Source: a phage. Taken from it: 44,881 nt of DNA. The stretch lies in sequence record PV730301.1. One strand, written 5' to 3'. Made by a program: the position numbers and the translations under genes. Of this stretch, positions 6,131 through 42,123 are shown piece after piece (positions within the stretch are counted from its first letter, which is position 1; each line of letters opens with the position of its first letter). Below the pieces are notes generated by a model. The model saw nothing but the letters and a program-made list of their open reading frames with translations, searched no databases and was not told the DNA's origin.

Positions 6131-6160
6131 TTTAAACTCCTTCATTGTTGGTGTAAGTGA

Positions 6161-6189
6161 ATAGTACCCTATTATATTGGGGTGCGCAA
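6161..6189 (-). promoter_or_regulatory. sigma70-like promoter for the Imm/phosphoesterase operon (TTGCGC-17-TACTAT) containing the conserved TGAATAGT..CTATTATA element
   Basis: Hexamers and 17-bp spacing read from the sequence; the 23-mer is identical to 41997..42019. Confidence 0.45.
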
Positions 6190-15864: not shown

Positions 15865-16376
15865 CTGGTAAATTTCCTCGCAAGATACGTTATTTCTTCT
15901 TCACAAAGTTCATCGAGGTCGTTAGATACAAATCCTCTGGTGAATGTTTTGCTTAACTTTAAGCCCGCTTTATCATTGTCACCGGCGCACACCCATTCAT
16001 ACGGCAAAAGTGACATTTGCTGCCGTAAGTCGGCTGGTATGTTCGACCCCAATGCGCTAACTGCATTAAACCCGCAATTCATCAAAGCAACAGCTTTAAA
16101 TATGCTTTCGGTGACAAATACCACCCCGCTACTTGGCAAATACTCAAGCCCCCATAAACACGGCCTTGTTGTTCGGGTAAAGTACCGCGCGTCTTTAGGG
16201 TTTTTACAGTTCTTTTCCGCATGTGGGTTGTAGTGCTGGTATCCGCGAAGCCTACCATCAAACCCCCACAGGTAAAACGTAGCTACTCCAGTGCCTAAGA
16301 CTACACGTAAACGGTCAGCGTCAAAACCTCGTGACAGCAGATGCGCCTTAAGTAGTAACTCCTTGCAATCCATCAT
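15861..16376 (-). CDS. Toprim-domain protein (primase-like)
   Basis: Conserved Glu (VTES) and DxD (AGDNDKAG) typical of Toprim; ATGA overlap with the helicase gene. Confidence 0.55.
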   Translation of the reverse strand: MMDCKELLLKAHLLSRGFDADRLRVVLGTGVATFYLWGFDGRLRGYQHYNPHAEKNCKNPKDARYFTRTTRPCLWGLEYLPSSGVVFVTESIFKAVALMNCGFNAVSALGSNIPADLRQQMSLLPYEWVCAGDNDKAGLKLSKTFTRGFVSNDLDELCEEEITYLARKFTR

Positions 16377-18719: not shown

Positions 18720-18907
18720 TTCGCCACCAGAACCAGCTCTTTACGCCCGAACGCCGTAACGTTGCCTGTTACATCTTCGATAACCAGTTTACCGTTCGAC
18801 TCGACGTACACCGTATCAACGGCAACAGGACGACGGGTCTTAACGTTGAAAATCATGTCTCCAGGTACGATGTCACGTGCTGGTTTGCGGTCATATTCGT
18901 GTTTCAT
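18716..18907 (-). CDS. hypothetical protein
   Basis: ATGA coupling to the methyltransferase gene; promoter immediately upstream. Confidence 0.5.
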   Translation of the reverse strand: MKHEYDRKPARDIVPGDMIFNVKTRRPVAVDTVYVESNGKLVIEDVTGNVTAFGRKELVLVAK

Positions 18908-19226
18908 TTCTCAATTCCTTATATTGTTGGTGTGTGTGATTACTATAATAGCCCGCTATTAGGTCGTCAACCTGTTTAAACGAACCAACGACAAAAACAT
19001 TTGCGCCTCGTTTACGCATCCTCTCGTGTTCACGTATTTGGTGCGGGTCTGGCTTCGTGTTTTCATCCTTCTTCACCTCGACGAACCAGACGATGCCGCC
19101 GGGGAGAATTATCAGCAGGTCGGGGGCGCCCACTCTATTTTCGTACGACAATTTGCGTACGAGGCCACCGATGGCCTCGAATCGCTCTTTTGCGTATTTC
19201 TGGATGCGCCCCTCAGGCGTACTCAT
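18891..19226 (-). CDS. VRR-NUC domain nuclease
   Basis: GAPDLLII...FVEVKK pattern typical of VRR-NUC. Confidence 0.65.
   Translation of the reverse strand: MSTPEGRIQKYAKERFEAIGGLVRKLSYENRVGAPDLLIILPGGIVWFVEVKKDENTKPDPHQIREHERMRKRGANVFVVGSFKQVDDLIAGYYSNHTHQQYKELRNETRI
18942..18970 (-). promoter_or_regulatory. sigma70-like promoter (TTGACG-17-TATAGT) with the conserved element, embedded in the 3' end of the VRR-NUC gene
   Basis: Hexamers and spacing read from the sequence; same architecture as 23052..23081 and 26055..26083. Confidence 0.5.
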
Positions 19227-19307
19227 CTATGCACCCCTCCCGTTTTGTATGCTCGATACCGCAGCGCGGACAGATTCGGCAGTCTTCTTCGTAGAACCAG
19301 TAAATTT

Positions 19308-19439
19308 TCATTCCAGCACCCACAGATAAATTGCAATAAACATACCTAACACGGCTACAATCATTCCGTATTGGCCCTCGTGACAGTAGACACCGGCAGC
19401 AAATCCCGCCAGTACCGCGATAATCAGTTTACTTGGCAT
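19308..19439 (-). CDS. hypothetical small membrane protein (43 aa)
   Basis: Hydrophobic; ATG adjacent to the HNH stop; the track ORF 19308..19691 overlaps the HNH gene and is probably too long. Confidence 0.3.
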   Translation of the reverse strand: MPSKLIIAVLAGFAAGVYCHEGQYGMIVAVLGMFIAIYLWVLE

Positions 19440-19440
19440 T

Positions 19441-19956
19441 CTAGCCCCCGTGATTCTCATGAAAGCCGTAGCGAACAATCGCAGATTTCCGTGCACAAGC
19501 CGCGTCAAATATATTGTCATAGTGGCCCAGGAATATAAGTCTACCGTCAACGAATATCCCTGCTTTCCATTTAGCCGCCCGTGCGTTCCAGTGCACACCA
19601 GTGAGACCTGACTTGTTATCTTTTCTGCGAGATGCGTTTCGGTTATTATCAGTACGGGATACTTTCCGAAGGTTGCATGCACGATTATCATCCAGGATAT
19701 GATTTATATGGTCTACTTCATCATCAGGCCCTAAACGGTCATTGTTATACATCTCCCATGCGATACGATTAGCCCTGTAACTAACCCCTCTGACGACGAT
19801 ACATATGTAGCCCCTCTTACTTGGACTACCGGCTTCGTCTCCGGCGTTTATACTGTGTCTCGGGGAATACTTCCATCGTATCTTCCCCGTGTCAGGTTCG
19901 TAGTAGAAATGGTCATGCCAATTAATTAAATCTCTCATAAACCACCCCATCATCAT
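19441..19956 (-). CDS. HNH homing endonuclease
   Basis: HINHILDDNRACNLR HNH motif; overlaps the DNA polymerase stop. Confidence 0.7.
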   Translation of the reverse strand: MMMGWFMRDLINWHDHFYYEPDTGKIRWKYSPRHSINAGDEAGSPSKRGYICIVVRGVSYRANRIAWEMYNNDRLGPDDEVDHINHILDDNRACNLRKVSRTDNNRNASRRKDNKSGLTGVHWNARAAKWKAGIFVDGRLIFLGHYDNIFDAACARKSAIVRYGFHENHGG

Positions 19957-22154
19957 TTAGCATATCTGTACATTTCGCTACCTTCCGCGACAAGAGGGAA
20001 ACCATCCGCCCACTCAGGCAGCGAACACATTAATTTTTCCAGTTCGGCCACCGTGTACTCAGGTGTATCTGGAGTTTCACACACTAATTCATCGTGTACC
20101 GAAAGCACGATAGGATACCCGCCGTGTTCAACGTTAATCATCGCATATGCTAGTAAATCACGGCACAGAGCCTGAACAATGTTTTCGCAGGCCTTGCCGC
20201 CGTGTGTGTACAGGGTGGTCCATTGGCGGGTTAACTGGTTTTCGCCTTGATACTTGATTCGCACATTCGTGTTTACCCGCCCGTCTTCGTCTGTTTCCTT
20301 TGTCACACTAACGCCGATTCCCGGATACGAGAGGATGCGGCCTGACGGCAACTCCATACACAACCACCAACCCGGAACCTTCCTGCCGGATGAATCAAAT
20401 TCTACAGTGCGCCATATGCGGATAGCCCTTTCCCCGTTCCTGCGCAAGCGCGCTCCCGCCCAAAATTCACGACCAGGGTTACGAACAGCGGCTAAAATTC
20501 CGTCTTTAAGGTCGCGCCAGAACGCTACTGTTTCAGGGTGTGACTCGCGCCACATACGCTTGATCGCGTCGCATGTGCGCCACACTTTCTTGTCCAGAAT
20601 ATACGACGGTCGGTCGTCCTTTTCGCCCGGACGCGGCGGTCGCTTTGCTTCCTGAATACGCGCCCACTCATACCCACGTGCGGTAGCAGCCCAGATGTGG
20701 TCAGGGAAAGTCCCATCCATTGTTTTTGCCATCTCAATAAGGTCAAGACCTAAGTTTTTAGCAAACGTAACGAACGCTCCGACGCCCCCCTCATAGCCGA
20801 GGCCAAGCTCGCAAGCCTTGCCTATCTGTCTGATTTCCTTGTAGTTTTTCTTAATGTCATCTGGGTCCATGCCGAACATCTTACCTGCGGTTACGCAGTA
20901 AATATCCAGTCCGGCACGGAACGTATCGAGCGCGGTTTCTTCACCTGCCAGCCACGCAAGCCCGCGGCCTTCTACGTTAGAGTAATCGGCAACTACAAAC
21001 TTATGTCCTGCTTCCGGGATGATGCAGCTACGAACCGTCGAAGCCGTTAGCTTGGCTACGTCGAAACGGCGGTGTGCACGGCCCTTAAGTAGCGCCGCAA
21101 TTCCTTTACCTAGTTCATCATCGTGATAATACCCGCGTGCCAGGTTCTGCGGCTGGAAGCCTTTACCGGCCCATCGCAGAGTTCGTTTTGCCCCGCCGTA
21201 CTGCAAGCAACCACGGCGGCGGTCGTCCGACGAGCGGCCCAACAGCAGTGGGTTATACTTTGTCGATGCTGTGGACGCTGCCCCGAGTCGCATCTCGATA
21301 ATCGTGCGGGCGTCGTCGGGTAAATCATCGTCTGACAACAGGTCATTCAGCGTCGACTTCTGCGCGTTGTGGATTCGGTGCGCCGGTGCGAGTTCACGCA
21401 GAATCGGAAGGAAGTCATTCCCGGTAAGCGAGCCGCCGTATTTGCGTTGGGCTTCTTCCTGTAACTGTGCTTTGTGTTTCTCCACAGCTTCGATCGCAGC
21501 TTCTGCCAACGCAACGTCAACCTTAAACCCGCGGTCATTGATTAACTGGTCCAGTTCCAGTACGCGGTCTTCAAACTCTGAGTTACCCCACCGCGGCAGC
21601 TTATGGAAGACTTCACGCATTGCGGTGATGTCGCTCACAGCGTACTTGATGAACAGCACCCACTCGTCAGGGTGAGTTTCTGCGGTGTAGCGGCGGATTT
21701 TGTAGTTCTTCGGCGTCGGTTTAGAAAAACGCTTAATCAGCGCCTTGCCGCGTTTATCTTTCGCGTTGTCCGCAGATACGCCCAACACTTCGCACAATGC
21801 GTCAAGTGAACCCGGCAGAGCGTGACGGAAGGCCCAAATCATCGTATCAATGGTGTTGCTTACAGGAATATCAAAACCCCAGCAGTGTTTCATGATGAGT
21901 CTGTCGAACATTGAACCGTTGTGCCACACCATCTTTATGCGGCTGTTAGGTTTAACCAGGCGGCGTAACGCGCGGTGCAAATCCCCCGGCATGTCGCTGC
22001 CTTCGGTGCAATCCCATACCTGCACAGGCTCGTCGTCAAAAGCATATGTGCAGATAAGCACTTCTGTAGTTGGGTGTTCGGCGTAAGCGTAAGAACCGAC
22101 TTTCTTTAAATCGGCTTCGGAGAATGTTTCAAAGTCCAGGTATAAGTAGCTCAT
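19953..22154 (-). CDS. family A DNA polymerase with 3'-5' exonuclease domain
   Basis: Exo I motif DFETFS, motif C SVHDELV; start placed at ATG 22154 with AAGGA RBS. Confidence 0.9.
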   Translation of the reverse strand: MSYLYLDFETFSEADLKKVGSYAYAEHPTTEVLICTYAFDDEPVQVWDCTEGSDMPGDLHRALRRLVKPNSRIKMVWHNGSMFDRLIMKHCWGFDIPVSNTIDTMIWAFRHALPGSLDALCEVLGVSADNAKDKRGKALIKRFSKPTPKNYKIRRYTAETHPDEWVLFIKYAVSDITAMREVFHKLPRWGNSEFEDRVLELDQLINDRGFKVDVALAEAAIEAVEKHKAQLQEEAQRKYGGSLTGNDFLPILRELAPAHRIHNAQKSTLNDLLSDDDLPDDARTIIEMRLGAASTASTKYNPLLLGRSSDDRRRGCLQYGGAKRTLRWAGKGFQPQNLARGYYHDDELGKGIAALLKGRAHRRFDVAKLTASTVRSCIIPEAGHKFVVADYSNVEGRGLAWLAGEETALDTFRAGLDIYCVTAGKMFGMDPDDIKKNYKEIRQIGKACELGLGYEGGVGAFVTFAKNLGLDLIEMAKTMDGTFPDHIWAATARGYEWARIQEAKRPPRPGEKDDRPSYILDKKVWRTCDAIKRMWRESHPETVAFWRDLKDGILAAVRNPGREFWAGARLRRNGERAIRIWRTVEFDSSGRKVPGWWLCMELPSGRILSYPGIGVSVTKETDEDGRVNTNVRIKYQGENQLTRQWTTLYTHGGKACENIVQALCRDLLAYAMINVEHGGYPIVLSVHDELVCETPDTPEYTVAELEKLMCSLPEWADGFPLVAEGSEMYRYAK

Positions 22155-22276
22155 TTCTTTTTCCTTAAATCCAGTGCCTTCGTTTCGCTTAATCTTATTT
22201 TCATACAATCACGGCAAATCCACACATGCCGGTATCCGGCTCGGTACTTATCCGCGTACCACGGAAGCGGTTTCAT
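22151..22276 (-). CDS. possible small Cys-containing ORF (41 aa) coupled to the polymerase start
   Basis: ATGA overlap with the polymerase ATG; no clear SD, so weak. Confidence 0.2.
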   Translation of the reverse strand: MKPLPWYADKYRAGYRHVWICRDCMKIRLSETKALDLRKKK

Positions 22277-22326
22277 ATAACGATAAACGTGCTTACAGAA
22301 AAACATTATTTTCGACCCTTAGTAAA

Positions 22327-22346
22327 AAGGCCCAATGAAGGGCCTT
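22327..22346 (-). terminator. terminator-like hairpin after the DUF2815 gene
   Basis: AAGGCCC-loop-GGGCCTT hairpin followed on the minus strand by TTTACT. Confidence 0.45.
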
Positions 22347-22365
22347 AGTTAAATTGATTCAGATA

Positions 22366-22995
22366 TTAGCGGCGGCGACGTTCGCGGCGCGGGGCTTCAT
22401 CTTCTTCATCGTCTTCCAGGTCGTCAGTGCTCGCTACTACACTGGAGCCCCCGAAGCGTTTACCTTCTCCCATATACTTGATGCCGAGGATGGTAGCGCA
22501 CAGGTTTTTCCAATCTTTGTGCCACCATAATTCTACAGATACGTTTGCGACACATCCGCTATATACCTGCTCGCCTTCTATTTCCTTTCCATCGATGTTG
22601 AAATCAGGCTCGGTTTGTTTTTCACCTTTAGCTGATGTCATAATTACCGGCTGGCGGTTGTTAGTAGCGCGGAAATACAGACCTTCTTCAAAATCTTCAA
22701 TCGGATTGTCGCGCATTGCCAGGTCACGGACGCAGCATTTGTCTGCGTGGTGGTCTACGCCGTAGTTGGCCTTCATCCATTTCTCGGCAGCAGCCGCCCC
22801 GATTGCCTCTGTTACAACTTCCAGTGCGGTGTCGTAAAGCGCGTCTATTTGAGGATGGTCAGGCTGCATAAGAACAGTTACCTGATATTTACCTTTAATC
22901 AGTTTACCGGTTTTCTTGTCCTCAGAGTCAGCAGCACGTTCGAATACGTTAACCCATGCAGTGTTTACTTTACGCAGATTCAGTTTAATACCCAT
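22366..22995 (-). CDS. DUF2815-like protein, probable ssDNA-binding protein
   Basis: Family recognition by eye; acidic C-terminal region DDLEDDEEDE as in SSB tails. Confidence 0.55.
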   Translation of the reverse strand: MGIKLNLRKVNTAWVNVFERAADSEDKKTGKLIKGKYQVTVLMQPDHPQIDALYDTALEVVTEAIGAAAAEKWMKANYGVDHHADKCCVRDLAMRDNPIEDFEEGLYFRATNNRQPVIMTSAKGEKQTEPDFNIDGKEIEGEQVYSGCVANVSVELWWHKDWKNLCATILGIKYMGEGKRFGGSSVVASTDDLEDDEEDEAPRRERRRR

Positions 22996-23051
22996 CTTGA
23001 TTTCTCGCTTTTCAAAGTTTACTCCGGGAAGCTGCCCGGCCAGTGATTAGA

Positions 23052-23081
23052 ACTATAATAGCTAACTATTCAGGTTGTCAA
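23052..23081 (-). promoter_or_regulatory. sigma70-like promoter (TTGACA-18-TATAGT) with the conserved element
   Basis: Intergenic; hexamers read from the sequence. Confidence 0.5.
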
Positions 23082-23085
23082 CACT

Positions 23086-23259
23086 TTATTTAAGTTTCTT
23101 CGGAACTACCTTATAGATATAAGGTTGCACCGCCTCATGCTTTGAGTTCTTCTCTTCTGCAATTTTGTCGGCGTCGGCGCGTTTAGCGTGAACGGAAACA
23201 ATTTCAAGTTCTTGAATATAGTCTAGGCGGTAATATCGCGTGAGAATATAAACCATCAT
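23086..23259 (-). CDS. hypothetical protein (57 aa)
   Basis: GGAGGA RBS; ATGA coupling with the upstream gene. Confidence 0.45.
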   Translation of the reverse strand: MMVYILTRYYRLDYIQELEIVSVHAKRADADKIAEEKNSKHEAVQPYIYKVVPKKLK

Positions 23260-24527
23260 TCTAAATCCTCCTCTGTTACCTGATTCCACTCAGGGCGTTT
23301 GTCATCTGCCGTTGCAACACATGGTGCGCCTGGCTTACGTGTAATTAGTTTTTCGAGAATAGGCCACGCATCGGTATTTTTGAACGCGGCTTCTGCCTCT
23401 TTCGGAGATACAAGAGACGCCTTAAACAGCATTTTCCGGTCTATTTCATAAAATTCTGCGGCGTCTATTACCTCCTTCGCATCTTTCCACGCACGGTTGC
23501 CCATCTTACCCTCCACCAGCTTGTACCCCGGCACTTTCTTACCGGAATGCAACGCGGTGGCCATCGCTTTCTCAACCTTGTCGATGTGCTGGCGCAACAA
23601 CGGCAACTTCTCATACTCAGCTACGAGTTGCTCTGGCGTAAGCTCCAGCGCAAAGTCGTCTTCCAGTTCTTCCACCAGTACAGAATTAACCGTCTTTGTA
23701 CGCGCGGCGCATTGTTCCGAGAACCGACACCACTGACAACCATCGACCGACGGCCTGAAATCCGATGCTTTCAGGTTCTTCTTGCCGCGGGAATACGCAT
23801 CAAGGGCTAACAGCGCGCGTTTCTGGGCAAACTTAGCGAACAGTTCCAGACCTTCAACCGAGATGTCCCACTCCGACGCACCACCAGCGTACGGCTGGAA
23901 GATGACCAGGCGCACTACTGTGATGTTATAACGTCTCTTGAGTCGGCGATAAACACCGAGAGCGTAAAGCATAAGCTGTTTGTTTTCTTTCGCTTCGACA
24001 CGATGCCGCCCAGTTTTCAGGTCGCCGATGATAAGCATATGTTCATCGGTGTTAGCCAGTTCCTGTACGGCAACAAGGTCAGCGGTCCCGAACGTCTCAA
24101 CGCCTTCATACCCAGGATGCAATACCTCAGTAAGATTGACGCGCATTTCCGGCTTGGCGTAAGTCGCTACGTCGATAATCGCTTTGCAGTAGTCCGTGTA
24201 CTTGCGCACCTGCTCAATCATGTCTGCCGTAATCAGTACCGCACCTTTCATCGGACTGATTAGTTCCTTAATCTGGCCTTTACCTTCATCAAGCACGTAA
24301 GCGCCGACTTCGCGCTCTAACGGCAACGCAGTACCTTTGATGTACTGATTTAAATGGACCTCTGCTATAGTGTGGCACGCGGTTCCTGTAACGGCGGATT
24401 TGCCTGACGTGTTAGGAATATCTTTTTCACAGGCCAACGATGCACTGCACGTCAGCCACTTTTTAGCGCCCGACGGTGACAGTAAGGCGTGTACATCGTT
24501 ATTGCCGCCACGTTCTTTAAGAATCAT
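23256..24527 (-). CDS. DUF2800-like PD-(D/E)XK nuclease (Cas4-like exonuclease)
   Basis: IGDLKTG...EAKENKQLMLYA core and C-terminal Cys cluster CQWCRFSEQC. Confidence 0.65.
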   Translation of the reverse strand: MILKERGGNNDVHALLSPSGAKKWLTCSASLACEKDIPNTSGKSAVTGTACHTIAEVHLNQYIKGTALPLEREVGAYVLDEGKGQIKELISPMKGAVLITADMIEQVRKYTDYCKAIIDVATYAKPEMRVNLTEVLHPGYEGVETFGTADLVAVQELANTDEHMLIIGDLKTGRHRVEAKENKQLMLYALGVYRRLKRRYNITVVRLVIFQPYAGGASEWDISVEGLELFAKFAQKRALLALDAYSRGKKNLKASDFRPSVDGCQWCRFSEQCAARTKTVNSVLVEELEDDFALELTPEQLVAEYEKLPLLRQHIDKVEKAMATALHSGKKVPGYKLVEGKMGNRAWKDAKEVIDAAEFYEIDRKMLFKASLVSPKEAEAAFKNTDAWPILEKLITRKPGAPCVATADDKRPEWNQVTEEDLE

Positions 24528-25021
24528 TTCTCGGCTCCGTTAACTGTAAATCCGTATTTAATTTCGGCTTGCCTACGAGCCTTAGCCGCGTTCTCTAACT
24601 TATTGTAAGCCCCTAAATAAATTGGCACCCCGTCTACATAAATTCTGGCAACCCACTTACCAGAGCGTTTATGAAACCCAACGCCTTTAACACCCGAAGT
24701 ATTGTCAGTACGTATGTTTGTGCCGTGTGCGATACTACCTCGACGCATTTTTATAAGATTTTCTATTCTGTTATCAGTTCTATCTTTATTTTTGTGACGA
24801 ATTACTTCCCCTTGCGCCATTGGCCCGTTAAACATCTCCCAAACAACGTGGTGGATAAGTTTAGTAGCGCCGTTAAAACGTAGTATTTTAAATTCACTCC
24901 CATCGTTATCCACCCTCGTACTACCAGCTTCTTGCCCTATTTTTACAGATTTTGACGGGCTTATTTTCCAAAACAATTTCCCTGTGACAGGGTCATAGTC
25001 AAACAGTTCATGCCAATTCAT
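24524..25021 (-). CDS. HNH endonuclease
   Basis: HKNKDRTDNRIENL HNH-like motif; ATGA overlap with the upstream gene. Confidence 0.65.
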   Translation of the reverse strand: MNWHELFDYDPVTGKLFWKISPSKSVKIGQEAGSTRVDNDGSEFKILRFNGATKLIHHVVWEMFNGPMAQGEVIRHKNKDRTDNRIENLIKMRRGSIAHGTNIRTDNTSGVKGVGFHKRSGKWVARIYVDGVPIYLGAYNKLENAAKARRQAEIKYGFTVNGAEK

Positions 25022-25290
25022 GCTCTGCTCTCCCACTGGTCAATTAAATGTCGCGTTTGGTGATGACAATGCATAGCCCACCCATACATCGACTCAAAGA
25101 CATAAAAGTCAGGTTTGGCGAAAGTCGTGCGCTTAATCTGTGACACGTGTCGGCCTATATCTTTAGGGCGCGGTACTTCGCCTAAGTACGCCATCTCTTC
25201 CATCAGGTGCGCACCGGACGGCGCACGTAACAGCCATAGCGCCTCCGTATTATCCCGCCTGTCTACGGCGCGGTAGAGTTGGTAAATCAT
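25018..25290 (-). CDS. hypothetical protein
   Basis: ORF with GAGGG upstream of the ATG. Confidence 0.4.
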   Translation of the reverse strand: MIYQLYRAVDRRDNTEALWLLRAPSGAHLMEEMAYLGEVPRPKDIGRHVSQIKRTTFAKPDFYVFESMYGWAMHCHHQTRHLIDQWESRA

Positions 25291-25333
25291 ATTTCCGACC
25301 CTCAGTTAAAGCGGCCCGAAGGCCGCGGGATAG

Positions 25334-25846
25334 TTATTCTTCTTCGAAATACTTGTTCTTGATTGCCGTCAGGCGTTCCAGGTACTCAACCAGGTCTTCG
25401 TCTTTAATTGCAGCAATCTTCATCTTCTTACCAGTGAACTCTTCCAGCAGTTCATCAGAATCATCACACGCGGCATCACTCGGACCTTCGTTAATTGCGT
25501 CGTCGATAGCCTGAATCTGGTCACGAAGAGACTTATAATCGACTTCTTCTTTCTCTTCTTCCGGCTCTGGCGTAGGTTCCTCTACTTTAGCTTTACGCGG
25601 CTTGCGTTTCGGCTTCTCTTCTTCTTCTGCCGGTTTAGTGTCGACGATGTCTTCACCTTCGACCGGGATTTCTTTCCCGATGCCTGTACCCGGGTCGACC
25701 TCAAGTACCTCGCCAGTAACCGATACGTCTACAAGCATTTCACCCGCACGCTCAACCGGCGGAACCGGACGTTTCACACTATTTGCGGCAATCAGTTCAT
25801 GTGCAACTACGAAACGCTCCAGTAATTTTAAGAATTGGTCTAACAT
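25334..25846 (-). CDS. hypothetical acidic Glu/Asp-rich protein
   Basis: ORF with strong acidic low-complexity region; coupled to the upstream small gene. Confidence 0.45.
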   Translation of the reverse strand: MLDQFLKLLERFVVAHELIAANSVKRPVPPVERAGEMLVDVSVTGEVLEVDPGTGIGKEIPVEGEDIVDTKPAEEEEKPKRKPRKAKVEEPTPEPEEEKEEVDYKSLRDQIQAIDDAINEGPSDAACDDSDELLEEFTGKKMKIAAIKDEDLVEYLERLTAIKNKYFEEE

Positions 25847-26022
25847 TATTTGTTCTCCTGTTCGGCGATATTGTTAAGTTCTTTAAGAATGTCTTTCTGC
25901 ATGTTTTCTGGTAAGTATAAGAATGCTTGAGTAATCATGCCTTTAACGCTTCCGCGGCCTTCTAAGATGAAGTTGGGGAACCACACTTTCCAGTTAGCAT
26001 CATAATCTTTACGTTTAGCCAT
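25846..26022 (-). CDS. hypothetical small protein (58 aa)
   Basis: GAGAGGAGAGA RBS; first gene downstream of the early promoter. Confidence 0.45.
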   Translation of the reverse strand: MAKRKDYDANWKVWFPNFILEGRGSVKGMITQAFLYLPENMQKDILKELNNIAEQENK

Positions 26023-26054
26023 TTTGTTTCTCTCCTCTCGTTTAGTATGGGCTG

Positions 26055-26083
26055 ACTATAATAGCAAACTATTCACATGTCAA
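26055..26083 (-). promoter_or_regulatory. sigma70-like early promoter (TTGACA-17-TATAGT) with the conserved element
   Basis: Hexamers read from the sequence; a second weaker copy (TTGATA-17-TAATTA) at about 26099..26127. Confidence 0.5.
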
Positions 26084-26147
26084 TGGGCTTTTCTAAAATA
26101 ATTAATATGGTACTATTCACATATCAACCGACTAAGGAGTAATTGAC

Positions 26148-26363
26148 ATGCAACCATCTGAACTAGGCATCCGCGTAGAACAACGCCGCAAAGAACTCGG
26201 CATCTCCCAGCGCCGTCTGGCTGTCCTGGCTGGTGTTTCCCAGGGCGCAATTAACCAGCTGGCACTTGGAGTAACTCAGGACGTCCGCCCGGCGACGCTG
26301 TTTAAACTGGCGGAAGTGCTGCAAGTAGACGCTAAGTGGCTGGCATTCGGTGAAGGGGCTTAA
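26148..26363 (+). CDS. XRE-family HTH transcriptional regulator (Cro/CI-like)
   Basis: ELGISQRRLAVLAGVSQGAINQLALG helix-turn-helix; AAGGAG RBS; only plus-strand gene within the minus-strand block. Confidence 0.75.
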   Translation: MQPSELGIRVEQRRKELGISQRRLAVLAGVSQGAINQLALGVTQDVRPATLFKLAEVLQVDAKWLAFGEGA

Positions 26364-26380
26364 CGCCCCTTTCTTTTTGC

Positions 26381-28621
26381 CTATTCCAAATCTTCCTCGG
26401 TCACTATCAGCATCTCATTCGGTTCGTATATTGTCTTTGGTCTTAATCTGTCACCCATCTTTTCCGGTATACGGTATGTACCGGGGATAACCTCGCCGTT
26501 AGCATCACATCCTAGCATCAACTCACCGTCTTTCAGCATCTTCTCGAGATGGTGGTTAGTGATGGCATGGTCACCCGAGTTCGATACTATCTGCCGTTGG
26601 GTAAAACCTCGTCCGGTGTCGTCAGACTGTTGCAGGTCTTCCAGCGCGGCGAGTATGGATTCCTTCCTTCCTTCATCCTTCCCACGTTTTACGGCATTCT
26701 TTACGTTTTCTTTACCTTCCTTTGTCATCCCTTCTTCCCGCTCTTTCTCCTCGTCAGTTTTGAACGGCTCGAAGCCCCACGGCATCAGCACAAGCGCCTT
26801 GTGCGGTTCCGGCAGGTCGAGGTTTACGATTGTGCCGTATTCCTCTGTGCTACCGAGGAACTCAACCGCACGGTACTCTTTCGGTGGTGGCGCTTCACGG
26901 AACTGTACCGACTCCAGCACCATGCCAACCGTCTTCTGTTGAGGGCCATGCTTAAATTTCGAGTGGTATACGTTTATCTGACGGTCGGTCGCACGCTCAA
27001 TTGTCAGTTCTACGTCAACGCCCGCGTACAGCGCCCCACTGCCACGGGCTTTCTTGCCACCCTTCGGCGTGTGGTGAACAACGCCTACCGCGGCTTTAGT
27101 TGCGTCACGTACTTCTTTCAGGATGGCGATAACTTTACCCATACCGATTGCCGTTGATGAGCTGTTCTCGTCGAACTTATCAATCGTCAGGGCCAGGGTC
27201 TGGTTAAGGGTGTCGAACGCGACCATGCCGATAGGTTCATCACCTGCAGTTTCGCGCATCAGCTTAATCAGGTTTCTCAGTTTCCCGACTTCGCCCATGT
27301 CGATAACATGTACATAATCTTTACCTTCCTCGCCATATTTAGCCGCGAGCGCGTCGATACGTGTGCGGGTAGCCGCGCCACCTTCACCATCAATATAGAA
27401 GTGATGGCAACGCTGGGTATCCGCCCCTGCGAACCGGTATCCGGCGGCGCTAAGGTACATCATCCCGAGCGTATAAAACGATTTGTACGTGCCGGATTCT
27501 CCGACAATATCCCAGATGCAATCAGACGGCATGTACCCCTCGACGACGAAATCAGCCTTTACCGGTTCCGGTAACTCGTCCTCCTCTGAGTCTTCGTCGT
27601 CTTCCAGGTCGTCGAGACTGCATGAAACTGATTCACGCGCACCCCACCCGATAGCCTCGGCGACTTCACTGAACGGAAGCCCGGTCGCGTCGCACGCGTA
27701 CTTCCACACCTCTTTCGGGGACATGCCTTCGGTTGCCGTAATGTCGGTGTCGTGAATCATGGTTACGTTCGGCGCTTCGTATCCCTCGCGCGGGAAACAC
27801 AGAAGGAAGTCGTCCGGGCGCGGGGTCGGGTCGCTGTAGTTTTCTGCGTGTTCCGGCGTAGCTGGCATCTTAAGGCCGCGCGGCGTCATGACGCCCCCAT
27901 ACTCGAACGCCAGGGATTCGAACGCATCTGTAAACGCGGTGCGCAGTTCTTCCGGTATCTGATAATCCGATGCGCTGCTAACATCAACGGCGGGGATACC
28001 TTCCAGTAACTCGTCCGGGTCAATTAGGTCGTTGCGACGCGACCAGATAACAGTAGAGCCAACCGGCGGCAGATACATCGGCTGCGACAGAGTAAACCCG
28101 CTTCGGTCAGCACCCATGCCTTTGAAGAAATGCTCCAGTAATCCATGACGAACGCGGATGATGTCGCCGCCTTCAACCGGGCGAGCCAGCGGCATGACGA
28201 CACGGAACCGCGGTGACTCTTCGGTATGTGATGCCGTGGTGTAAAGGCACACCGCCTGGCGGCTACGCTTAACCAGGCGCACCGCTTCCTGATACTCTTC
28301 CGGTGTTGCACTGTCAAAGTCTAGATACGCCAGCGACGATTTGCTTACAGACGCATCGCAGCGATAGAAGAAGCCTTTACGCGCTTGCTTAAAGTCACCT
28401 GTTTCCGGGTCTTTTACGGTGCTGTGCGTAGCGTCACACGCGGCGGTGATATACCCCGGCGCGGTCTTCGGGTTAATTCCGCCACGAACGGCATCAAGCG
28501 GCTGGATTAACTCTTTCAGGTCGTCCAGTGTTGCCGTGTGTGTGGTTCTGACGTTTATATCCTTTTTCTCTGCCCGCGCGTTGCGACGTGACCACGAGTA
28601 GGATAAAATTACATCGGACAT
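26381..28621 (-). CDS. primase/helicase (N-terminal primase-like domain plus RecA-like AAA_25 domain)
   Basis: RecA-like region FYIDGEGG...VVHHTPKGGK; start at ATG 28621 (track gives a GTG at 28663); C-terminal VTEEDLE tail. Confidence 0.65.
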   Translation of the reverse strand: MSDVILSYSWSRRNARAEKKDINVRTTHTATLDDLKELIQPLDAVRGGINPKTAPGYITAACDATHSTVKDPETGDFKQARKGFFYRCDASVSKSSLAYLDFDSATPEEYQEAVRLVKRSRQAVCLYTTASHTEESPRFRVVMPLARPVEGGDIIRVRHGLLEHFFKGMGADRSGFTLSQPMYLPPVGSTVIWSRRNDLIDPDELLEGIPAVDVSSASDYQIPEELRTAFTDAFESLAFEYGGVMTPRGLKMPATPEHAENYSDPTPRPDDFLLCFPREGYEAPNVTMIHDTDITATEGMSPKEVWKYACDATGLPFSEVAEAIGWGARESVSCSLDDLEDDEDSEEDELPEPVKADFVVEGYMPSDCIWDIVGESGTYKSFYTLGMMYLSAAGYRFAGADTQRCHHFYIDGEGGAATRTRIDALAAKYGEEGKDYVHVIDMGEVGKLRNLIKLMRETAGDEPIGMVAFDTLNQTLALTIDKFDENSSSTAIGMGKVIAILKEVRDATKAAVGVVHHTPKGGKKARGSGALYAGVDVELTIERATDRQINVYHSKFKHGPQQKTVGMVLESVQFREAPPPKEYRAVEFLGSTEEYGTIVNLDLPEPHKALVLMPWGFEPFKTDEEKEREEGMTKEGKENVKNAVKRGKDEGRKESILAALEDLQQSDDTGRGFTQRQIVSNSGDHAITNHHLEKMLKDGELMLGCDANGEVIPGTYRIPEKMGDRLRPKTIYEPNEMLIVTEEDLE

Positions 28622-28680
28622 GTTGTATATTCCTTCAGCAAGTAATTTGGCCTCGGCGTTCACCGCGTCGGGGCTTTCTT

Positions 28681-28914
28681 TTATTCCAGGTCTTCTAAAG
28701 TGGCCGTCATTCCGCGAACTTCAGCAACGGCACTATATTTCCCGCCAACATTTTTCACGACACCGGATTTAACCAGTACACGTAACGACCCTTCAATGAT
28801 GGCGGAACTATAGTACTTAAAATAACTACGGCGCAAGTCGATAACGCTGCACGACCCTTTTTTACGTGTTAACGAAACGACCGCCGTAAATACGCGTGAC
28901 TGGAACTCGGTCAT
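28681..28914 (-). CDS. hypothetical protein with C-terminal TLEDLE tail
   Basis: ATGA coupling to the upstream AlpA-like gene. Confidence 0.5.
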   Translation of the reverse strand: MTEFQSRVFTAVVSLTRKKGSCSVIDLRRSYFKYYSSAIIEGSLRVLVKSGVVKNVGGKYSAVAEVRGMTATLEDLE

Positions 28915-29081
28915 TTCACGTTCTCCTTAATCCACGCTTCCACTTTCTCCGGGTCGAACGTACCTGGCTGGCGGCGGCCCATAATGCGAATACAACAATC
29001 GGGGAACTTCCCACTCTTTAACCAGTTATTCAGTGTGCGGCGAGTAACCCCGATACGCTCAGCTACTTCATTCTGTGTCAT
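28911..29081 (-). CDS. AlpA/excisionase-family HTH regulator
   Basis: MTQNEVAERIGVTRRTLNNWLKSGKFP matches the AlpA-type HTH; start placed at ATG 29081. Confidence 0.6.
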   Translation of the reverse strand: MTQNEVAERIGVTRRTLNNWLKSGKFPDCCIRIMGRRQPGTFDPEKVEAWIKENVK

Positions 29082-29113
29082 TCTCAAACCCCCATTATCA
29101 GTTAACGAAACCA

Positions 29114-29142
29114 AGTATACATTGTGAATAATGGGAAATCAA
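29114..29142 (-). promoter_or_regulatory. sigma70-like promoter (TTGATT-17-TATACT) for the AlpA-primase operon
   Basis: Hexamers read from the sequence; spacer carries an ATTATTCACA variant of the conserved element. Confidence 0.45.
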
Positions 29143-29511
29143 ACATAATCGCACCTATTGACATTATGAAAATCTTCGTTTAAGGTGCTTCTGTATCTTA
29201 GTTACTTTGATTCCTGTTCACCTTGTAAGAATGTTTAACCCGTGCGTCAAGCAAAGGGTTAAACACAGGCTTACTGAACATTCGAATTATCGTAACTTTC
29301 CTTCCTTAGTATCTCAGGTTGCCCTGGGCAAGCTCTATTCTCATCGGCAGCTTATCTCTTAAGTATCTGATTTTCTTAATGTGCCGTAGATTCGCAACCG
29401 TAAAAATGTAACGATTATTGGGCAGGCTTAAGGCCTGCCCTTTAGTTACCAAGTAATAAGAATAAAGGCACAACCATCCCTGAAAAATCACAACGGCAAC
29501 GTAACCATCTC

Positions 29512-29540
29512 TTGCACACCCCGACATAATAGGATACTAT
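29512..29540 (+). promoter_or_regulatory. sigma70-like promoter (TTGCAC-17-TACTAT) with the conserved element
   Basis: Hexamers read from the sequence; same architecture at 30871..30899. Confidence 0.5.
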
Positions 29541-29568
29541 TCACTTATCAAAACGAAACCGAGGAGCG

Positions 29569-29766
29569 ATGGTTATGTTTAAGAAGGGTCAATTGGCTAA
29601 AACTAAACGTGGAGGGCAATATGTATTAGTGTTGCAGGACTAGAACGAGTATGACCAGGATAATCTGGTTGACGTATGGGGTCTGGTAAGAAAGAAAACT
29701 GGGTTCGCCTTACGCGATAATTTAGAACTCATCGGCAACAATTTTAAATTCAAAGGGGTGAAGTGA
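29569..29766 (+). pseudogene. small ORF interrupted by an in-frame TAG at 29641 (amber allele, readthrough or sequencing error)
   Basis: GAGGAG RBS; 24 codons, TAG, then 40 more codons ending in TGATG coupling to the next gene. Confidence 0.35.
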
Positions 29767-30722: not shown

Positions 30723-30755
30723 CAGGTCAATAGGTTACTATTTGGCTTTGTGTCT

Positions 30756-30790
30756 TACGCTGCTACACAGCAGCGTATCATTTTTCTCAT
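30756..30790 (+). terminator. rho-independent terminator
   Basis: 9-bp stem TACGCTGCT/AGCAGCGTA followed by a T-rich tract. Confidence 0.6.
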
Positions 30791-30870: not shown

Positions 30871-30899
30871 TTGCACACCTGGATATAATAGCCTACTAT
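30871..30899 (+). promoter_or_regulatory. sigma70-like promoter (TTGCAC-17-TACTAT) with the conserved element
   Basis: Hexamers read from the sequence. Confidence 0.5.
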
Positions 30900-30930
30900 T
30901 CATTTACACAAACGAGAGGAGAGACAGAAG

Positions 30931-34675: not shown

Positions 34676-34697
34676 ATCTATTTTCTGTTATGACTAG

Positions 34698-34726
34698 TTG
34701 ACTATTACATTCGACCCTACTATATT
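34698..34726 (+). promoter_or_regulatory. sigma70-like promoter (TTGACT-17-TATATT)
   Basis: Hexamers and spacing read from the sequence; upstream of 34761. Confidence 0.5.
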
Positions 34727-40056: not shown

Positions 40057-40079
40057 AGCCCCGAAAGGGGCTTTCTTAT
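40057..40079 (+). terminator. terminator-like hairpin (possible attenuator inside the head operon)
   Basis: AGCCCC-GAAA-GGGGCT hairpin followed by TTCTTAT. Confidence 0.45.
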
Positions 40080-40082
40080 AGT

Positions 40083-41159
40083 ATGCTATTAACTTTAGCG
40101 CCACAGGGTTTATTTATGAGCTTACTTACATCACTAATCAGCCACCAGATATGGCTGCAACGCACCGCATCCGGCGAAGTGAAAGACCTCGCGCCGTTCA
40201 TTCAGGAGATGCGGGACGAAATAAAACGGCAGGTGCTGCTATTCGGCGACGACGGGCGCAGCACTGCGCGACTGAATAAACTGTTACGTGACCTCGAAGA
40301 AGCGCTAACTGGACTTACAGGCGACTGGCAAACAAAGCTGACAGAAGACCTTAAGGAACTGGCGGCGTATGAGGCTGAGTGGAACGTAAAGACACTGACC
40401 GCCAACGTTAACGCGGAATTTGTTACACCTACGGCCGAGCAGGTGTGGGCCGCAGCCGAGTTTCAACCCTTATCGTTAAGCGACAAGCCCGTTGACTTCA
40501 CTAAGCTGATGTCTGGCTGGGGTGAAACGGAGGTTGCGCGCCTTGTAACGGGCGTTAAGATGGGTTTCGCACAAGGCCAGACAACACGGCAGATTGTTAA
40601 GAATGTTGTAGGCGCTGGTGGACTAGCCAACATCTCTGAGCGTAACGCAGCTACAGTAATCCGCACCGCGCTGTCCCACGTATCCAACGAAGCCCGTAAT
40701 GAGACGTACCGCCAGAACGACGACATCATTGAGAAGTACGAGTGGGTGTCGACGTTGGACAGCCGCACCAGTACAATTTGCAGAGCCAGAGACGGAATGA
40801 CGTGGGAAATCGGAAAAGGGCCGATGCCGCCAGCGCATCCGAATTGTCGGTCATGCACGGCCCCTGTGATTAGCTCGGAGTTCGACTTCCTGGATAAAGG
40901 CGCAAAACGCGCGGCTAAAGGCGCAGACGGCGGAGCCCAGGTAAGCGCGGGCACCACTTACTACGAGTTCCTGAAACAGCAACCGGCATGGTTTCAGGAC
41001 CAGGCGCTTGGTCCTGTTCGCGGTAAGATTTTCCGTAACAGCGGTATATCGCCGGAAGAGTTTCGCGTAATATCTGTAGATGGTTTCGGGAATCCGCTCA
41101 CGCTTAGGCAGATGGCGGAACTCGATAAACGTGTTGCTGATTATCTGAAAGGGGAATAA
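40083..41159 (+). CDS. head morphogenesis protein (Mu F / SPP1 gp7-like)
   Basis: Position after the portal; size. Confidence 0.55.
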   Translation: MLLTLAPQGLFMSLLTSLISHQIWLQRTASGEVKDLAPFIQEMRDEIKRQVLLFGDDGRSTARLNKLLRDLEEALTGLTGDWQTKLTEDLKELAAYEAEWNVKTLTANVNAEFVTPTAEQVWAAAEFQPLSLSDKPVDFTKLMSGWGETEVARLVTGVKMGFAQGQTTRQIVKNVVGAGGLANISERNAATVIRTALSHVSNEARNETYRQNDDIIEKYEWVSTLDSRTSTICRARDGMTWEIGKGPMPPAHPNCRSCTAPVISSEFDFLDKGAKRAAKGADGGAQVSAGTTYYEFLKQQPAWFQDQALGPVRGKIFRNSGISPEEFRVISVDGFGNPLTLRQMAELDKRVADYLKGE

Positions 41160-41956: not shown

Positions 41957-41999
41957 TTTAGTAAACCTCTATTTTTATTAAATAACACCGATGTGATGA

Positions 42000-42028
42000 A
42001 TAGTACCCTATTATATTGGTGTCTGCAA
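42000..42028 (-). promoter_or_regulatory. sigma70-like promoter (TTGCAG-17-TACTAT) with the conserved 23-mer
   Basis: Same 23-mer as at 6158..6180. Confidence 0.45.
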
Positions 42029-42094
42029 ACTATTTGTTTATGTATTCCAGTTATTCCACTCAATTGTAAATGTTGGAATAAACTATTCGAATAG

Positions 42095-42123
42095 TTGACT
42101 TTTCACTAAAAATGTGCTAAGCT
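42095..42123 (+). promoter_or_regulatory. candidate late promoter (TTGACT-17-TAAGCT with extended -10 TG) overlapped by a perfect 16-bp palindrome
   Basis: Hexamers read from the sequence; palindrome AACTATTCGAATAGTT at 42081..42096. Confidence 0.45.

What the first reader, a model, noticed from the sequence alone, without database searches (positions are those of the whole stretch)
26023..26147. Divergent early control region with tandem ACTATTCACAT(G/A)TCAA repeats flanking a lone plus-strand XRE regulator
Seen in sequence: two direct copies of ACTATTCACATGTCAA / ACTATTCACATATCAA (about 26069..26084 and 26112..26127), 43 bp apart. Copy 1 overlaps the -35 of the minus-strand promoter. Copy 2 overlaps the -10/+1 region (TACTAT at 26111) of the plus-strand promoter that drives the XRE HTH gene, the only plus-strand gene inside 13 kb of minus-strand replication genes. 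The geometry is that of an autoregulated Cro/CI-type switch, although no integrase is present.
Basis: partly seen in the sequence, partly recalled or inferred. Interest (0 to 1): 0.55.

Follow-up and report, generated by a model that had tools for sequence, protein, structure and literature searches.

The report
Cro-like repressor sites in phage promoters
The two repeats are real, but they are two of about a dozen copies of a short palindrome built into the promoters of a strictly lytic E. coli phage (Kagunavirus). It is most likely the binding site of the phage's small 434-Cro-like protein, which would make this a genome-wide early-gene shut-off rather than a lysis/lysogeny switch.

Summary
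The repeats are real: 26068-26083 (reader 1 nt off) and 26112-26127, with a third copy at 29536-29551. Copy 1 contains the -35 of a near-consensus leftward promoter (TTGACA-17-TATAGT). Copy 2 contains the -10 (TGG-TACTAT) of the XRE gene's promoter.

The repeat unit was drawn wrongly. The conserved element is a 14-16 bp palindrome, (T)AATAG-N4-CTATT(C). It has 8 exact and 4 one-mismatch copies in this 44.9-kb Kagunavirus genome (about 1 expected), 11 of 12 of them between genes. Ten have a sigma-70-like promoter around them, in either orientation and three registers (centre -12.5, -18.5 or -33.5). Arms are near-invariant across about 40 relatives while centre and flanks vary, and Jerseyvirus has the same palindrome.

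The XRE protein is a 71-aa homologue of 434 Cro in sequence and predicted fold. This family binds palindromes with an uncontacted centre.

Best reading: a Cro-like repressor with a genome-wide operator set, including a conserved weaker site on its own promoter. There is no CI partner and no integrase, so it is not a bistable switch. Binding is inferred, not shown.

Two papers already list the motif, as "phage promoters". Ordinary kind, modest interest.

The parts
26060..26073 (.). It lies in the spacer and -10 of the leftward promoter, centred at -18.5.
   Evidence: The arms are near-invariant in 35 distinct relative sequences (one arm column 90-99%) while the centre varies.
26104..26117 (.). 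It has one mismatch in the left arm. It overlaps the -10 of the XRE promoter, centred at -12.5.
   Evidence: The site is near-invariant in 31 distinct relative sequences, and its imperfect left arm (AATAT) is invariant.
26068..26083 (+). It consists of the right palindrome arm, a variable linker and the -35 hexamer (TTGACA on the minus strand).
   Evidence: The linker at 26076-26077 has 13 variants of 2-3 nt among relatives.
26112..26127 (+). It consists of the right palindrome arm, which overlaps the -10 hexamer, plus the start-site region of the XRE promoter.
26055..26083 (-). Leftward promoter P_L: TTGACA (26083-26078), 17-nt spacer, TATAGT (26060-26055). The predicted start is near 26048. 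It drives gene 25846-26022 and the replication genes beyond.
   Evidence: (11/12 match). Conserved in Kagunavirus relatives. Jerseyvirus has TTGCAT-17-TATAGT at the same place.
26108..26116 (+). XRE promoter: extended -10 TGG-TACTAT with no recognisable -35 (CTTTTC at 26088-26093). The predicted start is near 26121-26123.
   Evidence: TG and TACTAT are kept in all Kagunavirus relatives. Jerseyvirus has TTGCGT-17-TACTAT.
26148..26363 (+). Gene for the 71-aa XRE/HTH_3 protein, a 434-Cro-like single-domain repressor candidate. Its ribosome-binding site AAGGAG is at 26134-26139.
26352..26372 (+). Intrinsic terminator for the XRE transcript. The T-run is on the plus strand only.
   Evidence: plus direct reading of the sequence.
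25846..26022 (-). First gene of the leftward operon (58 aa, no family match). It is replaced by at least four other genes in relatives, while the promoter stays.
29528..29541 (.). It lies in the rightward promoter TTGCAC-17-TACTAT, centred at -12.5, ahead of the rightward small-gene operon.
   Evidence: Conserved in relatives and in Jerseyvirus Ent1 at 37906.
30887..30900 (.). Palindrome in the rightward promoter TTGCAC-17-TACTAT.
30729..30742 (.). Exact palindrome with no convincing promoter around it. A terminator-like hairpin follows immediately.
23057..23070 (.). Palindrome in the leftward promoter TTGACA-18-TATAGT upstream of the gene that relatives annotate as ssDNA-binding protein (22366-22995).
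   Evidence: The product name comes from relatives' annotation and Pfam marks. The orthologous site in Ent1 is at 32156.
18947..18960 (.). Palindrome in the leftward promoter TTGACG-17-TATAGT upstream of gene 18716-18907. It overlaps the last codons of ORF 18891-19226.
   Evidence: The orthologous site in Ent1 is at 27946.
6160..6173 (.). Palindrome in the minus-strand promoter TTGCGC-17-TACTAT upstream of the superinfection-immunity-like gene.
   Evidence: The orthologous site in Ent1 is at 15735, in a third register.
41999..42012 (.). Palindrome in the minus-strand promoter TTGCAG-17-TACTAT upstream of gene 41642-41956.
34693..34706 (.). One-mismatch palindrome (ACTAGTTGACTATT) over the -35 of the plus-strand promoter TTGACT-17-TATATT. 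A possible weak site.
   Evidence: The Ent1 equivalent is AATAGTTGACTAGT at 40891.
42090..42103 (.). One-mismatch palindrome (AATAGTTGACTTTT) over the -35 of the plus-strand promoter TTGACT-17-TAAGCT. A possible weak site.
40077..40090 (.). One-mismatch palindrome (TATAGTATGCTATT) between genes, just after a terminator. Its role is unclear.
   Evidence: The Golestan paper also lists it as a PHIRE 'promoter'.

Best explanation
The window is the genome of a virulent Kagunavirus (Guernseyvirinae). The 125-bp region holds two back-to-back sigma-70 promoters. P_L fires leftward into the replication genes. P_xre fires rightward into a 71-aa 434-Cro-like HTH gene.

Each promoter carries one copy of a 14-16 bp palindrome, (T)AATAG-N4-CTATT(C). 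The same palindrome is built into at least seven other sites in the genome, six of which have a sigma-70-like promoter around them.

Proposed mechanism:
- The Cro-like protein is made from its own weak promoter, which has an extended -10 and no -35.
- It accumulates, binds the palindromes as a dimer and blocks RNA polymerase at all of them.
- This turns down the immunity, replication and rightward small-gene operons.
- It finally turns down its own promoter, whose site is a conserved imperfect copy.

This would be a one-protein timer or shut-off regulon, not a bistable switch.

Shown here: the sites, their enrichment, their placement in promoter-like sequence, their conservation pattern, and the family of the protein. 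Inferred: that the promoters fire, that this protein is the binder, and that binding represses.
For: - Identity of the phage. It is 86-94% identical to Kagunavirus phages over most of a 1.7-kb query, and 91-97% over the 341-bp region itself.
- Enrichment. AATAG-N4-CTATT gives 12 matches at up to 1 mismatch against 0.99 expected, with 0 of 100 shuffles reaching 12. In an unbiased count of all 5-N-5 and 6-N-6 palindromes it is the top entry in the window (8 exact). In Jerseyvirus Ent1 it is also the top entry (4 exact, as TAATAG-N4-CTATTA). Ent1 has 8 hits against 1.3 expected.
- Location. 11 of 12 sites lie in the roughly 11% of the genome that is intergenic by a crude map.
- Promoter context. 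Ten sites have a sigma-70-like -35/16-18 nt/-10 around them; 30729 and 40077 do not. The palindrome lies in either orientation relative to transcription, centred at -12.5, -18.5 or -33.5. One Ent1 site has a further register, about -15.5. Polymerase contacts alone therefore cannot explain conservation of both arms.
- Conservation. In about 40 Kagunavirus loci the arms are near-invariant (one to three arm columns at 90-99% in some sites), while the central 4 bp and the 2-3 nt linker next to the -35 vary freely (13 linker variants). In relatives one site reads AGAATAG instead of TATAATAG, so what is kept is AATAG, not a TATAAT box.
- Orthologous promoters in Jerseyvirus keep the palindrome although their flanks have diverged.
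- The protein. It has an HTH_3 domain. Its best PDB sequence match is 434 Cro (E 4.9e-7, both 71 aa). The AF2 model has five helices (pLDDT 78.5), and its best fold matches are 434 Cro, 434 repressor, SinR, C-proteins and P22 c2.
- Family precedent. P22 repressor binds an 18-bp site as a dimer without touching the central four base pairs (PMC4267663). The 5-4-5 architecture here matches that.
- Recognition helix. GVSQGAINQLALG is invariant in all Kagunavirus-type homologues down to 77% identity, except one Ala-to-Val change, and those phages keep the sites.
Against: - No experiment links the protein to the sites, and no transcription start has been mapped.
- The phage encodes at least one other small HTH protein (HTH_17, 28911-29114) that could be the binder.
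- The recognition helices of the Kagunavirus and Jerseyvirus proteins differ (SQGAINQ versus SQSLITH, 52% identity overall), yet the palindrome is nearly the same. This is not what a strict protein-site co-variation would predict.
- Cornellvirus has a 39%-identical homologue, but no repeated palindrome was found in 31 kb of its genome.
- Both arms resemble -10 hexamers, so part of the conservation could reflect promoter function.
- The site at 30729 has no convincing promoter.
Confidence: 0.55

Rival explanations
1. Promoter cassette only. The repeated 20-30 nt are a phage-specific consensus of strong host-polymerase promoters (or, as two papers label them, promoters for a phage RNA polymerase). 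No dedicated regulator binds them. The palindromic look comes from -10-like hexamers on both strands.
For: PHIRE lists the same 20-mers as conserved 'promoters' in fBC-Eco01 and Golestan. In the five forward-class sites the right arm overlaps the -10 hexamer TACTAT. In the three reverse-class sites the left arm abuts or overlaps TATAGT. The four full forward-class promoters share about 32 nt, including the -35 flank, which could simply reflect a common origin.
Against: No RNA polymerase gene was found. The largest ORFs are tape measure, DNA polymerase, helicase-primase and two tail proteins, and the annotated relatives shown list none. The element lies in opposite orientations relative to transcription (5 forward, 3 reverse) and in three registers. 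In each class, one arm lies where sigma-70 makes no base-specific contact, yet that arm is near-invariant while neighbouring linker bases vary freely.
Confidence: 0.17
2. The palindrome is an operator, but for another protein. Candidates are the 67-aa HTH_17 protein (28911-29114), another small phage protein, or a host factor. The XRE protein would then have a different target.
For: The HTH_17 protein is present and conserved in synteny. The recognition helix of the XRE protein differs between Kagunavirus and Jerseyvirus while the palindrome barely changes. Cornellvirus keeps an XRE homologue without an obvious repeated palindrome.
Against: HTH_17/excisionase-type proteins of about 60 aa are not known, to my knowledge, for binding 5-4-5 palindromes as symmetric dimers. 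434 Cro and P22 c2 relatives do exactly that. The XRE gene's own promoter carries a conserved site, as expected for an autoregulated repressor. The palindrome does not match any host-factor consensus that I can recall (own knowledge, not tested).
Confidence: 0.18
3. One reading: a local, autoregulated Cro/CI-type bistable switch built from two tandem operators flanking the XRE gene.
For: Divergent promoters each overlap one repeat, next to a Cro-like gene.
Against: There is no second repressor. The divergent gene is a 58-aa protein with no family match, and relatives carry other genes in its place. There is no array of three adjacent operators, and no integrase was seen among the ORFs examined; a relative is reported to have none. 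The same site occurs at seven or more other sites across the genome.
Confidence: 0.05

Closest known systems
Phage 434 Cro and its 14-bp operators (ACAA-N6-TTGT)
   Same: Both proteins are 71 aa with a single five-helix HTH_3 domain. 434 Cro is the best sequence match (E 4.9e-7) and the best fold match (TM about 0.8). The candidate site is a 14-bp palindrome with conserved outer bases and a variable centre, and it overlaps core promoter elements.
   Different: The recognition helix differs (SQGAINQ versus KQQSIQL), and so does the half-site. There is no CI partner and no OR1-OR3 array. The sites are scattered over 9-12 places in a virulent genome rather than clustered at two operators.
P22 c2 repressor N-terminal domain and its 18-bp operator with four uncontacted central base pairs
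   Same: The fold matches. The operator architecture is the same: conserved arms and a 4-bp centre that the protein does not read (PMC4267663). An annotated relative (phage Snoke) reports an HHpred match to P22 C2.
   Different: P22 c2 has a C-terminal oligomerisation and cleavage domain and works within a lysogeny switch. The protein here is the HTH domain alone.
Repressors with many dispersed sites: P1 C1 operators, phiC31 conserved inverted repeats, mycobacteriophage L5 stoperators (from my own knowledge, not checked here)
   Same: One phage repressor with a dozen or more sites spread across the genome, controlling several operons.
   Different: Those are temperate phages that maintain lysogeny. 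Here the phage is virulent, and the sites sit inside core promoters in three registers.
Controller (C) proteins of restriction-modification systems (C.AhdI, C.BclI)
   Same: They are small XRE-fold proteins and appear among the top fold matches. They are autoregulated from a weak promoter and act as delay timers (PMC2647307, abstract listed).
   Different: C-proteins act on a paired C-box at their own operon only, and they activate before they repress. No such paired box is seen here.
PHIRE 'phage promoters' of Kagunavirus fBC-Eco01 and VB_EcoS-Golestan
   Same: These are the same 20-mers at the same seven genome positions, including both copies upstream of the Cro-like gene.
   Different: The papers treat them as promoters, in one case for a phage RNA polymerase that the genome does not encode. 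They do not note the palindrome, the two orientations, or a link to the HTH protein.

Membership tests
434 Cro / P22 c2-type XRE (HTH_3) phage repressors | HTH_3 (PF01381) domain | tested here: met
   E 1.2e-12, residues 11-65. PHROG hits are all transcriptional repressor or regulator families.
434 Cro / P22 c2-type XRE (HTH_3) phage repressors | Five-helix lambda-repressor-like fold | tested here: met
   The AF2 model has helices 5-17, 21-28, 32-39, 48-57 and 62-67, with pLDDT 78.5. Top Foldseek matches are 2cro, 1pra, 3cro and 3jxb, with TM 0.77-0.84.
434 Cro / P22 c2-type XRE (HTH_3) phage repressors | Cro-like rather than CI-like: a single domain of about 70 aa with no C-terminal oligomerisation or S24 peptidase domain | tested here: met
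   The protein is 71 aa, and the alignment to 434 Cro spans residues 6-68.
434 Cro / P22 c2-type XRE (HTH_3) phage repressors | Binds as a dimer to a 14-18 bp palindromic operator overlapping a promoter | not testable with these tools
   A fitting palindrome exists in the gene's own promoter and in other promoter-like sites. Binding was not measured.
Lambdoid CI/Cro bistable immunity switch | A second repressor (CI) transcribed divergently from the Cro gene | tested here: not met
   The divergent gene is a 58-aa protein with no Pfam or PHROG match. Relatives carry other genes in its place.
Lambdoid CI/Cro bistable immunity switch | Array of adjacent operators (OR1-3) shared by the two divergent promoters | tested here: not met
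   There are two sites 44 bp apart (43-45 bp in relatives), each within its own promoter.
Lambdoid CI/Cro bistable immunity switch | Lysogeny module (integrase, excision) | tested here: inconclusive
   No integrase appeared among the ORFs scanned, but not every ORF in the window was scanned. A relative is reported to lack an integrase (PMC9825357).
Phage-RNA-polymerase promoters (label used in PMC9825357) | A phage-encoded RNA polymerase | tested here: not met
   The largest ORFs are tape measure, family A DNA polymerase, helicase-primase and two tail proteins. The annotated relatives shown list none.
Phage-RNA-polymerase promoters (label used in PMC9825357) | One fixed orientation relative to the transcribed genes | tested here: not met
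   Five sites point with the downstream gene and three point against it.
Sigma-70 promoters | -35 and -10 hexamers with a 16-18 nt spacer upstream of a gene with a ribosome-binding site | tested here: met
   P_L scores 11/12. The other promoters score 7-11/12 with 17-18 nt spacers. P_xre has TG-n-TACTAT. Start sites were not mapped.
R-M controller C-protein / C-box timers | Paired palindromic C-boxes immediately upstream of the protein's own gene, giving activation followed by repression | tested here: inconclusive
   The fold is similar. Only one imperfect palindrome lies in the gene's own promoter, and the second palindrome 44 bp upstream belongs to the divergent promoter.

The most novel reading that the evidence does not exclude
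A strictly virulent siphovirus subfamily (Kagunavirus and Jerseyvirus) times its whole transcription programme with one CI-less, 434-Cro-like protein. The protein would read a palindrome embedded in a dozen host-polymerase promoters, in three different registers. It would repress the early and replication promoters (centre -12.5 or -18.5). It might act differently at the two promoters where a weaker site sits over the -35 (centre -33.5), ahead of the gene blocks starting at 34761 and 42348. This would be a leftover immunity protein turned into a global lytic regulator.
Probability: 0.3. Interest if true: 0.55.

Novelty: new member of a known kind. Interest (0 to 1): 0.35.

Why it matters
Guernseyvirinae phages are widely proposed for therapy and food safety. 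Their 'transcriptional repressor' gene is the kind of annotation that can raise doubts about a temperate lifestyle. If it is a Cro-like lytic regulator with a defined site set, and has no CI or integrase partner, that would help settle the doubt.

The analysis also argues against a published label: the motif is not a phage-RNA-polymerase promoter. It offers a compact system of one 71-aa protein and about a dozen sites that can be tested directly. Such a system could be used to study timing in a virulent phage that relies on host polymerase. It could also supply a set of repressible promoters for engineering.

Tried and rejected
- I searched for more distant XRE homologues to see whether the site travels with the protein. 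The word-indexed protein search returned only Kagunavirus-type proteins at 77-99% identity. IMG/VR gave the same set plus one unrelated 40% hit.
- Klebsiella phage klb_E (45% identity) turned out to carry a 434-type protein (recognition helix TKQQTIQQ) next to an ACAA-N6-TTGT-like site. It does not have the AATAG palindrome, so it is not informative.
- Cornellvirus (39% identity): palindrome counting, repeat finding and shared k-mers in 20 intergenic regions gave no clear common site. This remains unresolved.
- I considered TATAAT at 26057-26062 as a plus-strand -10. It has no -35, and relatives at another site replace TATAAT with TAGAAT while keeping AATAG. Rejected.
- I considered copy 2 as a second leftward promoter (TTGATA-18-AATTAT, 9/12). 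Its -35 is absent in Jerseyvirus. Judged unlikely.
- I considered a fixed helical phase between the two sites. Their spacing is 43-45 bp in Kagunavirus. I counted 55 bp by hand from the Ent1 sequence. Not fixed.
- The inverted repeat CATGTCAAT/ATTGACATG is not conserved in relatives. Judged to be chance.
- The Rfam scan of the whole window found nothing.
- Literature searches found no transcriptome or binding study for these genera.

Full report
**What the window is.** A 1.7-kb query around the finding is 86-94% identical, over 83-91% of its length, to Escherichia and Shigella phages of the genus Kagunavirus. It shows weaker matches to several hundred Salmonella Jerseyvirus phages. The 341-bp region itself is 91-97% identical to Kagunavirus phages. 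Both genera belong to the subfamily Guernseyvirinae, which is described as virulent and lacking lysogeny genes (PMC9825357). At 44,881 bases the window is about one whole genome.

ACTATTCACATATCAA is at 26112-26127. The spacing is 44 bp.
- A third copy with one mismatch is at 29536-29551. That gives three matches at up to three mismatches against 0.55 expected, and no shuffle reached three.
- The similarity extends leftward to about 25 nt.
On the minus strand, TTGACA (26083-26078), a 17-nt spacer and TATAGT (26060-26055) match the consensus at 11 of 12 positions. About 26 nt further on come GAGGAGAG and the ATG at 26022.
- On the plus strand, TG-G-TACTAT (26108-26116) is an extended -10 without a usable -35. 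It is followed by AAGGAG (26134-26139) and the ATG at 26148.
- The 71-aa product has an HTH_3 domain (E 1.2e-12).
- It is the only credible plus-strand gene in the minus-strand block 15727-29114.

**The repeat unit was mis-drawn.** Searching for the left extension (TAATA-N5-CTATTCA) found seven perfect copies across the genome, not three. Aligned, they share a palindrome, AATAG-N4-CTATT.
- This pattern has eight exact and four one-mismatch copies, against 0.99 expected.
- In an unbiased count of every 5-N-5 and 6-N-6 palindrome, it is the most frequent one in the window. The only other recurrent palindromes are GC-rich stems, several of which the terminator scan also picks up.
In copy 1 it is the -35 hexamer plus a linker.

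**Where the sites are.** Eleven of the twelve lie in intergenic DNA, which is about 11% of the genome by a crude gene map. The twelfth, at 18947, overlaps the last codons of one ORF just upstream of the next gene. Ten sites have a sigma-70-like promoter around them:
- Forward class, TTGC(A/G)N-17-TACTAT, palindrome centred at -12.5:
  - 6160 on the minus strand, ahead of a superinfection-immunity-like gene
  - 29528 on the plus strand
  - 30887 on the plus strand
  - 41999 on the minus strand
  - copy 2, which lacks the -35 and is assigned from the sequence, not from the script
- Reverse class, TTGAC(A/G)-17/18-TATAGT on the opposite strand, palindrome centred at -18.5:
  - 18947
  - 23057, ahead of the gene that relatives annotate as ssDNA-binding protein
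  - copy 1
- Two one-mismatch sites, 34693 and 42090, lie over the -35 of TTGACT promoters, centred at -33.5.
- The exact site at 30729 and the one-mismatch site at 40077 have no convincing promoter.

**Why this looks like an operator and not just a promoter.** The same element occurs in both orientations relative to transcription and in several registers. In each class, one arm lies where sigma-70 makes no base-specific contact.
- Across 37 IMG/VR relatives plus annotated phages, the arms are near-invariant; a few arm columns are conserved in only 90-99% of distinct sequences. The central four bases vary.
- The 2-3 nt linker between the right arm and the -35 of copy 1 exists in 13 variants, including length changes. 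The equivalent linker at the promoter at 23057 exists in seven. Unconstrained positions in these regions therefore do drift, and the arms do not.
- At the 30887 site most relatives read AGAATAG where the window reads TATAATAG. The kept feature is AATAG, not a TATAAT box.
- In Jerseyvirus Ent1 the palindrome is TAATAG-N4-CTATTA. It has four exact copies and eight at up to one mismatch, against 1.3 expected.
- These sites sit at orthologous promoters whose flanks have diverged. One of them (TTGCAT-17-TATTAT) is in yet another register, which I place at about -15.5.

**The protein.**
- Its best match in the PDB is phage 434 Cro (E 4.9e-7, residues 6-68 of 71; 434 Cro is also 71 aa). Next come 434 repressor and P22 c2.
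- The Jerseyvirus homologue (52% identical) also matches 434 Cro best.
- An AlphaFold model (pLDDT 78.5) has five helices. It superposes best on 434 Cro, the 434 repressor N-terminal domain, SinR, R-M controller proteins and P22 c2.
- Proteins of this family bind palindromes as dimers. [quoted passage not shown] A 5-4-5 palindrome is therefore the expected kind of site.
- The recognition helix GVSQGAINQLALG is invariant in all Kagunavirus-type homologues down to 77% identity, apart from one Ala-to-Val change in one cluster. A 77%-identical phage keeps six exact sites within 20 kb.

**Best-supported mechanism.** This is inference from the points above. The Cro-like protein is made from a weak promoter and accumulates. 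It occupies the palindromes and occludes RNA polymerase at the immunity, replication and rightward small-gene promoters. At higher concentration it occupies its own promoter, whose site is a conserved imperfect copy.

There is no second repressor. The divergently transcribed gene is a 58-aa protein with no family match, and relatives carry at least four other genes at that position. There is no array of adjacent operators, and no integrase turned up among the ORFs examined. The arrangement therefore works like Cro acting alone, or like an R-M controller-protein timer. It does not work like a lysis/lysogeny switch.

**Weak points.**
- Nothing here measures binding or transcription.
- A second small HTH protein (HTH_17, 28911-29114) is an alternative binder.
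- The Kagunavirus and Jerseyvirus recognition helices differ (SQGAINQ versus SQSLITH) although the site barely changes.
- Cornellvirus has a 39%-identical homologue, in a rearranged locus, without an evident repeated palindrome in the 31 kb examined.
- Both arms resemble -10 hexamers.

**Comparison with the literature.** Two genome papers ran PHIRE and list exactly these 20-mers as seven conserved 'promoters'.

No RNA polymerase gene was found among the largest ORFs or in the annotated relatives shown. The element also occurs in both orientations. The 'phage RNA polymerase promoter' label is therefore not supported. I found no paper that notes the palindrome, links it to the HTH protein, or reports a transcriptome for these genera.

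**Verdict.** This is a real and conserved regulatory element of an ordinary kind: a Cro-family repressor with promoter-embedded operators. Interest is modest.

Noticed in passing
window 26074-26077 and 23074-23075; loci L002-L038, L043, L047: The 2-3 nt between the palindrome's right arm and the -35 hexamer is hypervariable among close relatives, while everything around it is invariant. There are 13 variants at copy 1, including 1-nt length changes, and 7 at the promoter at 23057. The promoter spacer therefore toggles between 17 and 18 nt.
   Followed up: partly
window 25846-26022 and the equivalent position in L002-L038: The first gene downstream of the conserved leftward promoter is mosaic. 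At least five unrelated sequences abut the same promoter and ribosome-binding site in different relatives.
   Followed up: no
window 30729-30790; L006 9560-9640: An exact palindrome with no convincing -35 is followed within about 10 nt by a strong hairpin with a T-run (ACGCTGCT-ACAC-AGCAGCGT). In several relatives it is preceded by a tandem GGTGTAACAGGT repeat. It could be a short transcript, an attenuator or a roadblock site.
   Followed up: no
window 42060-42347: This stretch contains a back-to-back arrangement of the half-sites (CTATTCGAATAG), then a TTGACT-17-TAAGCT promoter, then a leader of about 230 nt ending in a GC-rich hairpin before the gene at 42348. Rfam finds nothing there.
   Followed up: partly
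window 29523-29551: The site at 29528 may serve two overlapping divergent promoters. The rightward one is TTGCAC-17-TACTAT. The weak leftward one is TTGATA-17-TATGTC, which reads TATGTT in most relatives and would feed the HTH_17/helicase-primase operon through a leader of about 400 nt. Similarly, 6160 has a plus-strand candidate, TTGGTG-16-TATTAT.
   Followed up: partly
window 4161-4180, 15703-15722, 22327-22346, 41624-41643: A family of four near-identical GC-rich hairpins (AAGGCCCC-N4-GGGGCCTT) lies at operon boundaries. The terminator scan picks up two of them, one on both strands.
   Followed up: no
window 24524-25036: An HNH endonuclease with an AP2 domain is inserted in the replication operon. 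Relatives differ in such homing-endonuclease genes, and Jerseyvirus Ent1 carries inteins in its polymerase and helicase.
   Followed up: no
L045 (Cornellvirus vB_CECAV_044) 10587-13631: In Cornellvirus the XRE homologue and the helicase-primase gene are on the same strand, so the segment is inverted relative to Kagunavirus and Jerseyvirus. The annotated XRE ORF of about 149 aa (10587-11036) is probably over-extended, because the homologous part starts near 10819.
   Followed up: partly
window 29576-29644: A 22-aa ORF (MFKKGQLAKTKRGGQYVLVLQD) with a strong ribosome-binding site follows the promoter at 29528. Relatives have 32-63 aa ORFs starting with the same residues, so it may be truncated here.
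   Followed up: no
window 29150-29170, minus strand: The sequence reads AATAGGTGCGATTATGTT, a degenerate palindrome-like element within a possible TTCATA-17-TATGTT promoter just upstream of the HTH_17 gene. It resembles the Jerseyvirus copy-1 variant AATAGAGCACGATTATAGT.
   Followed up: no
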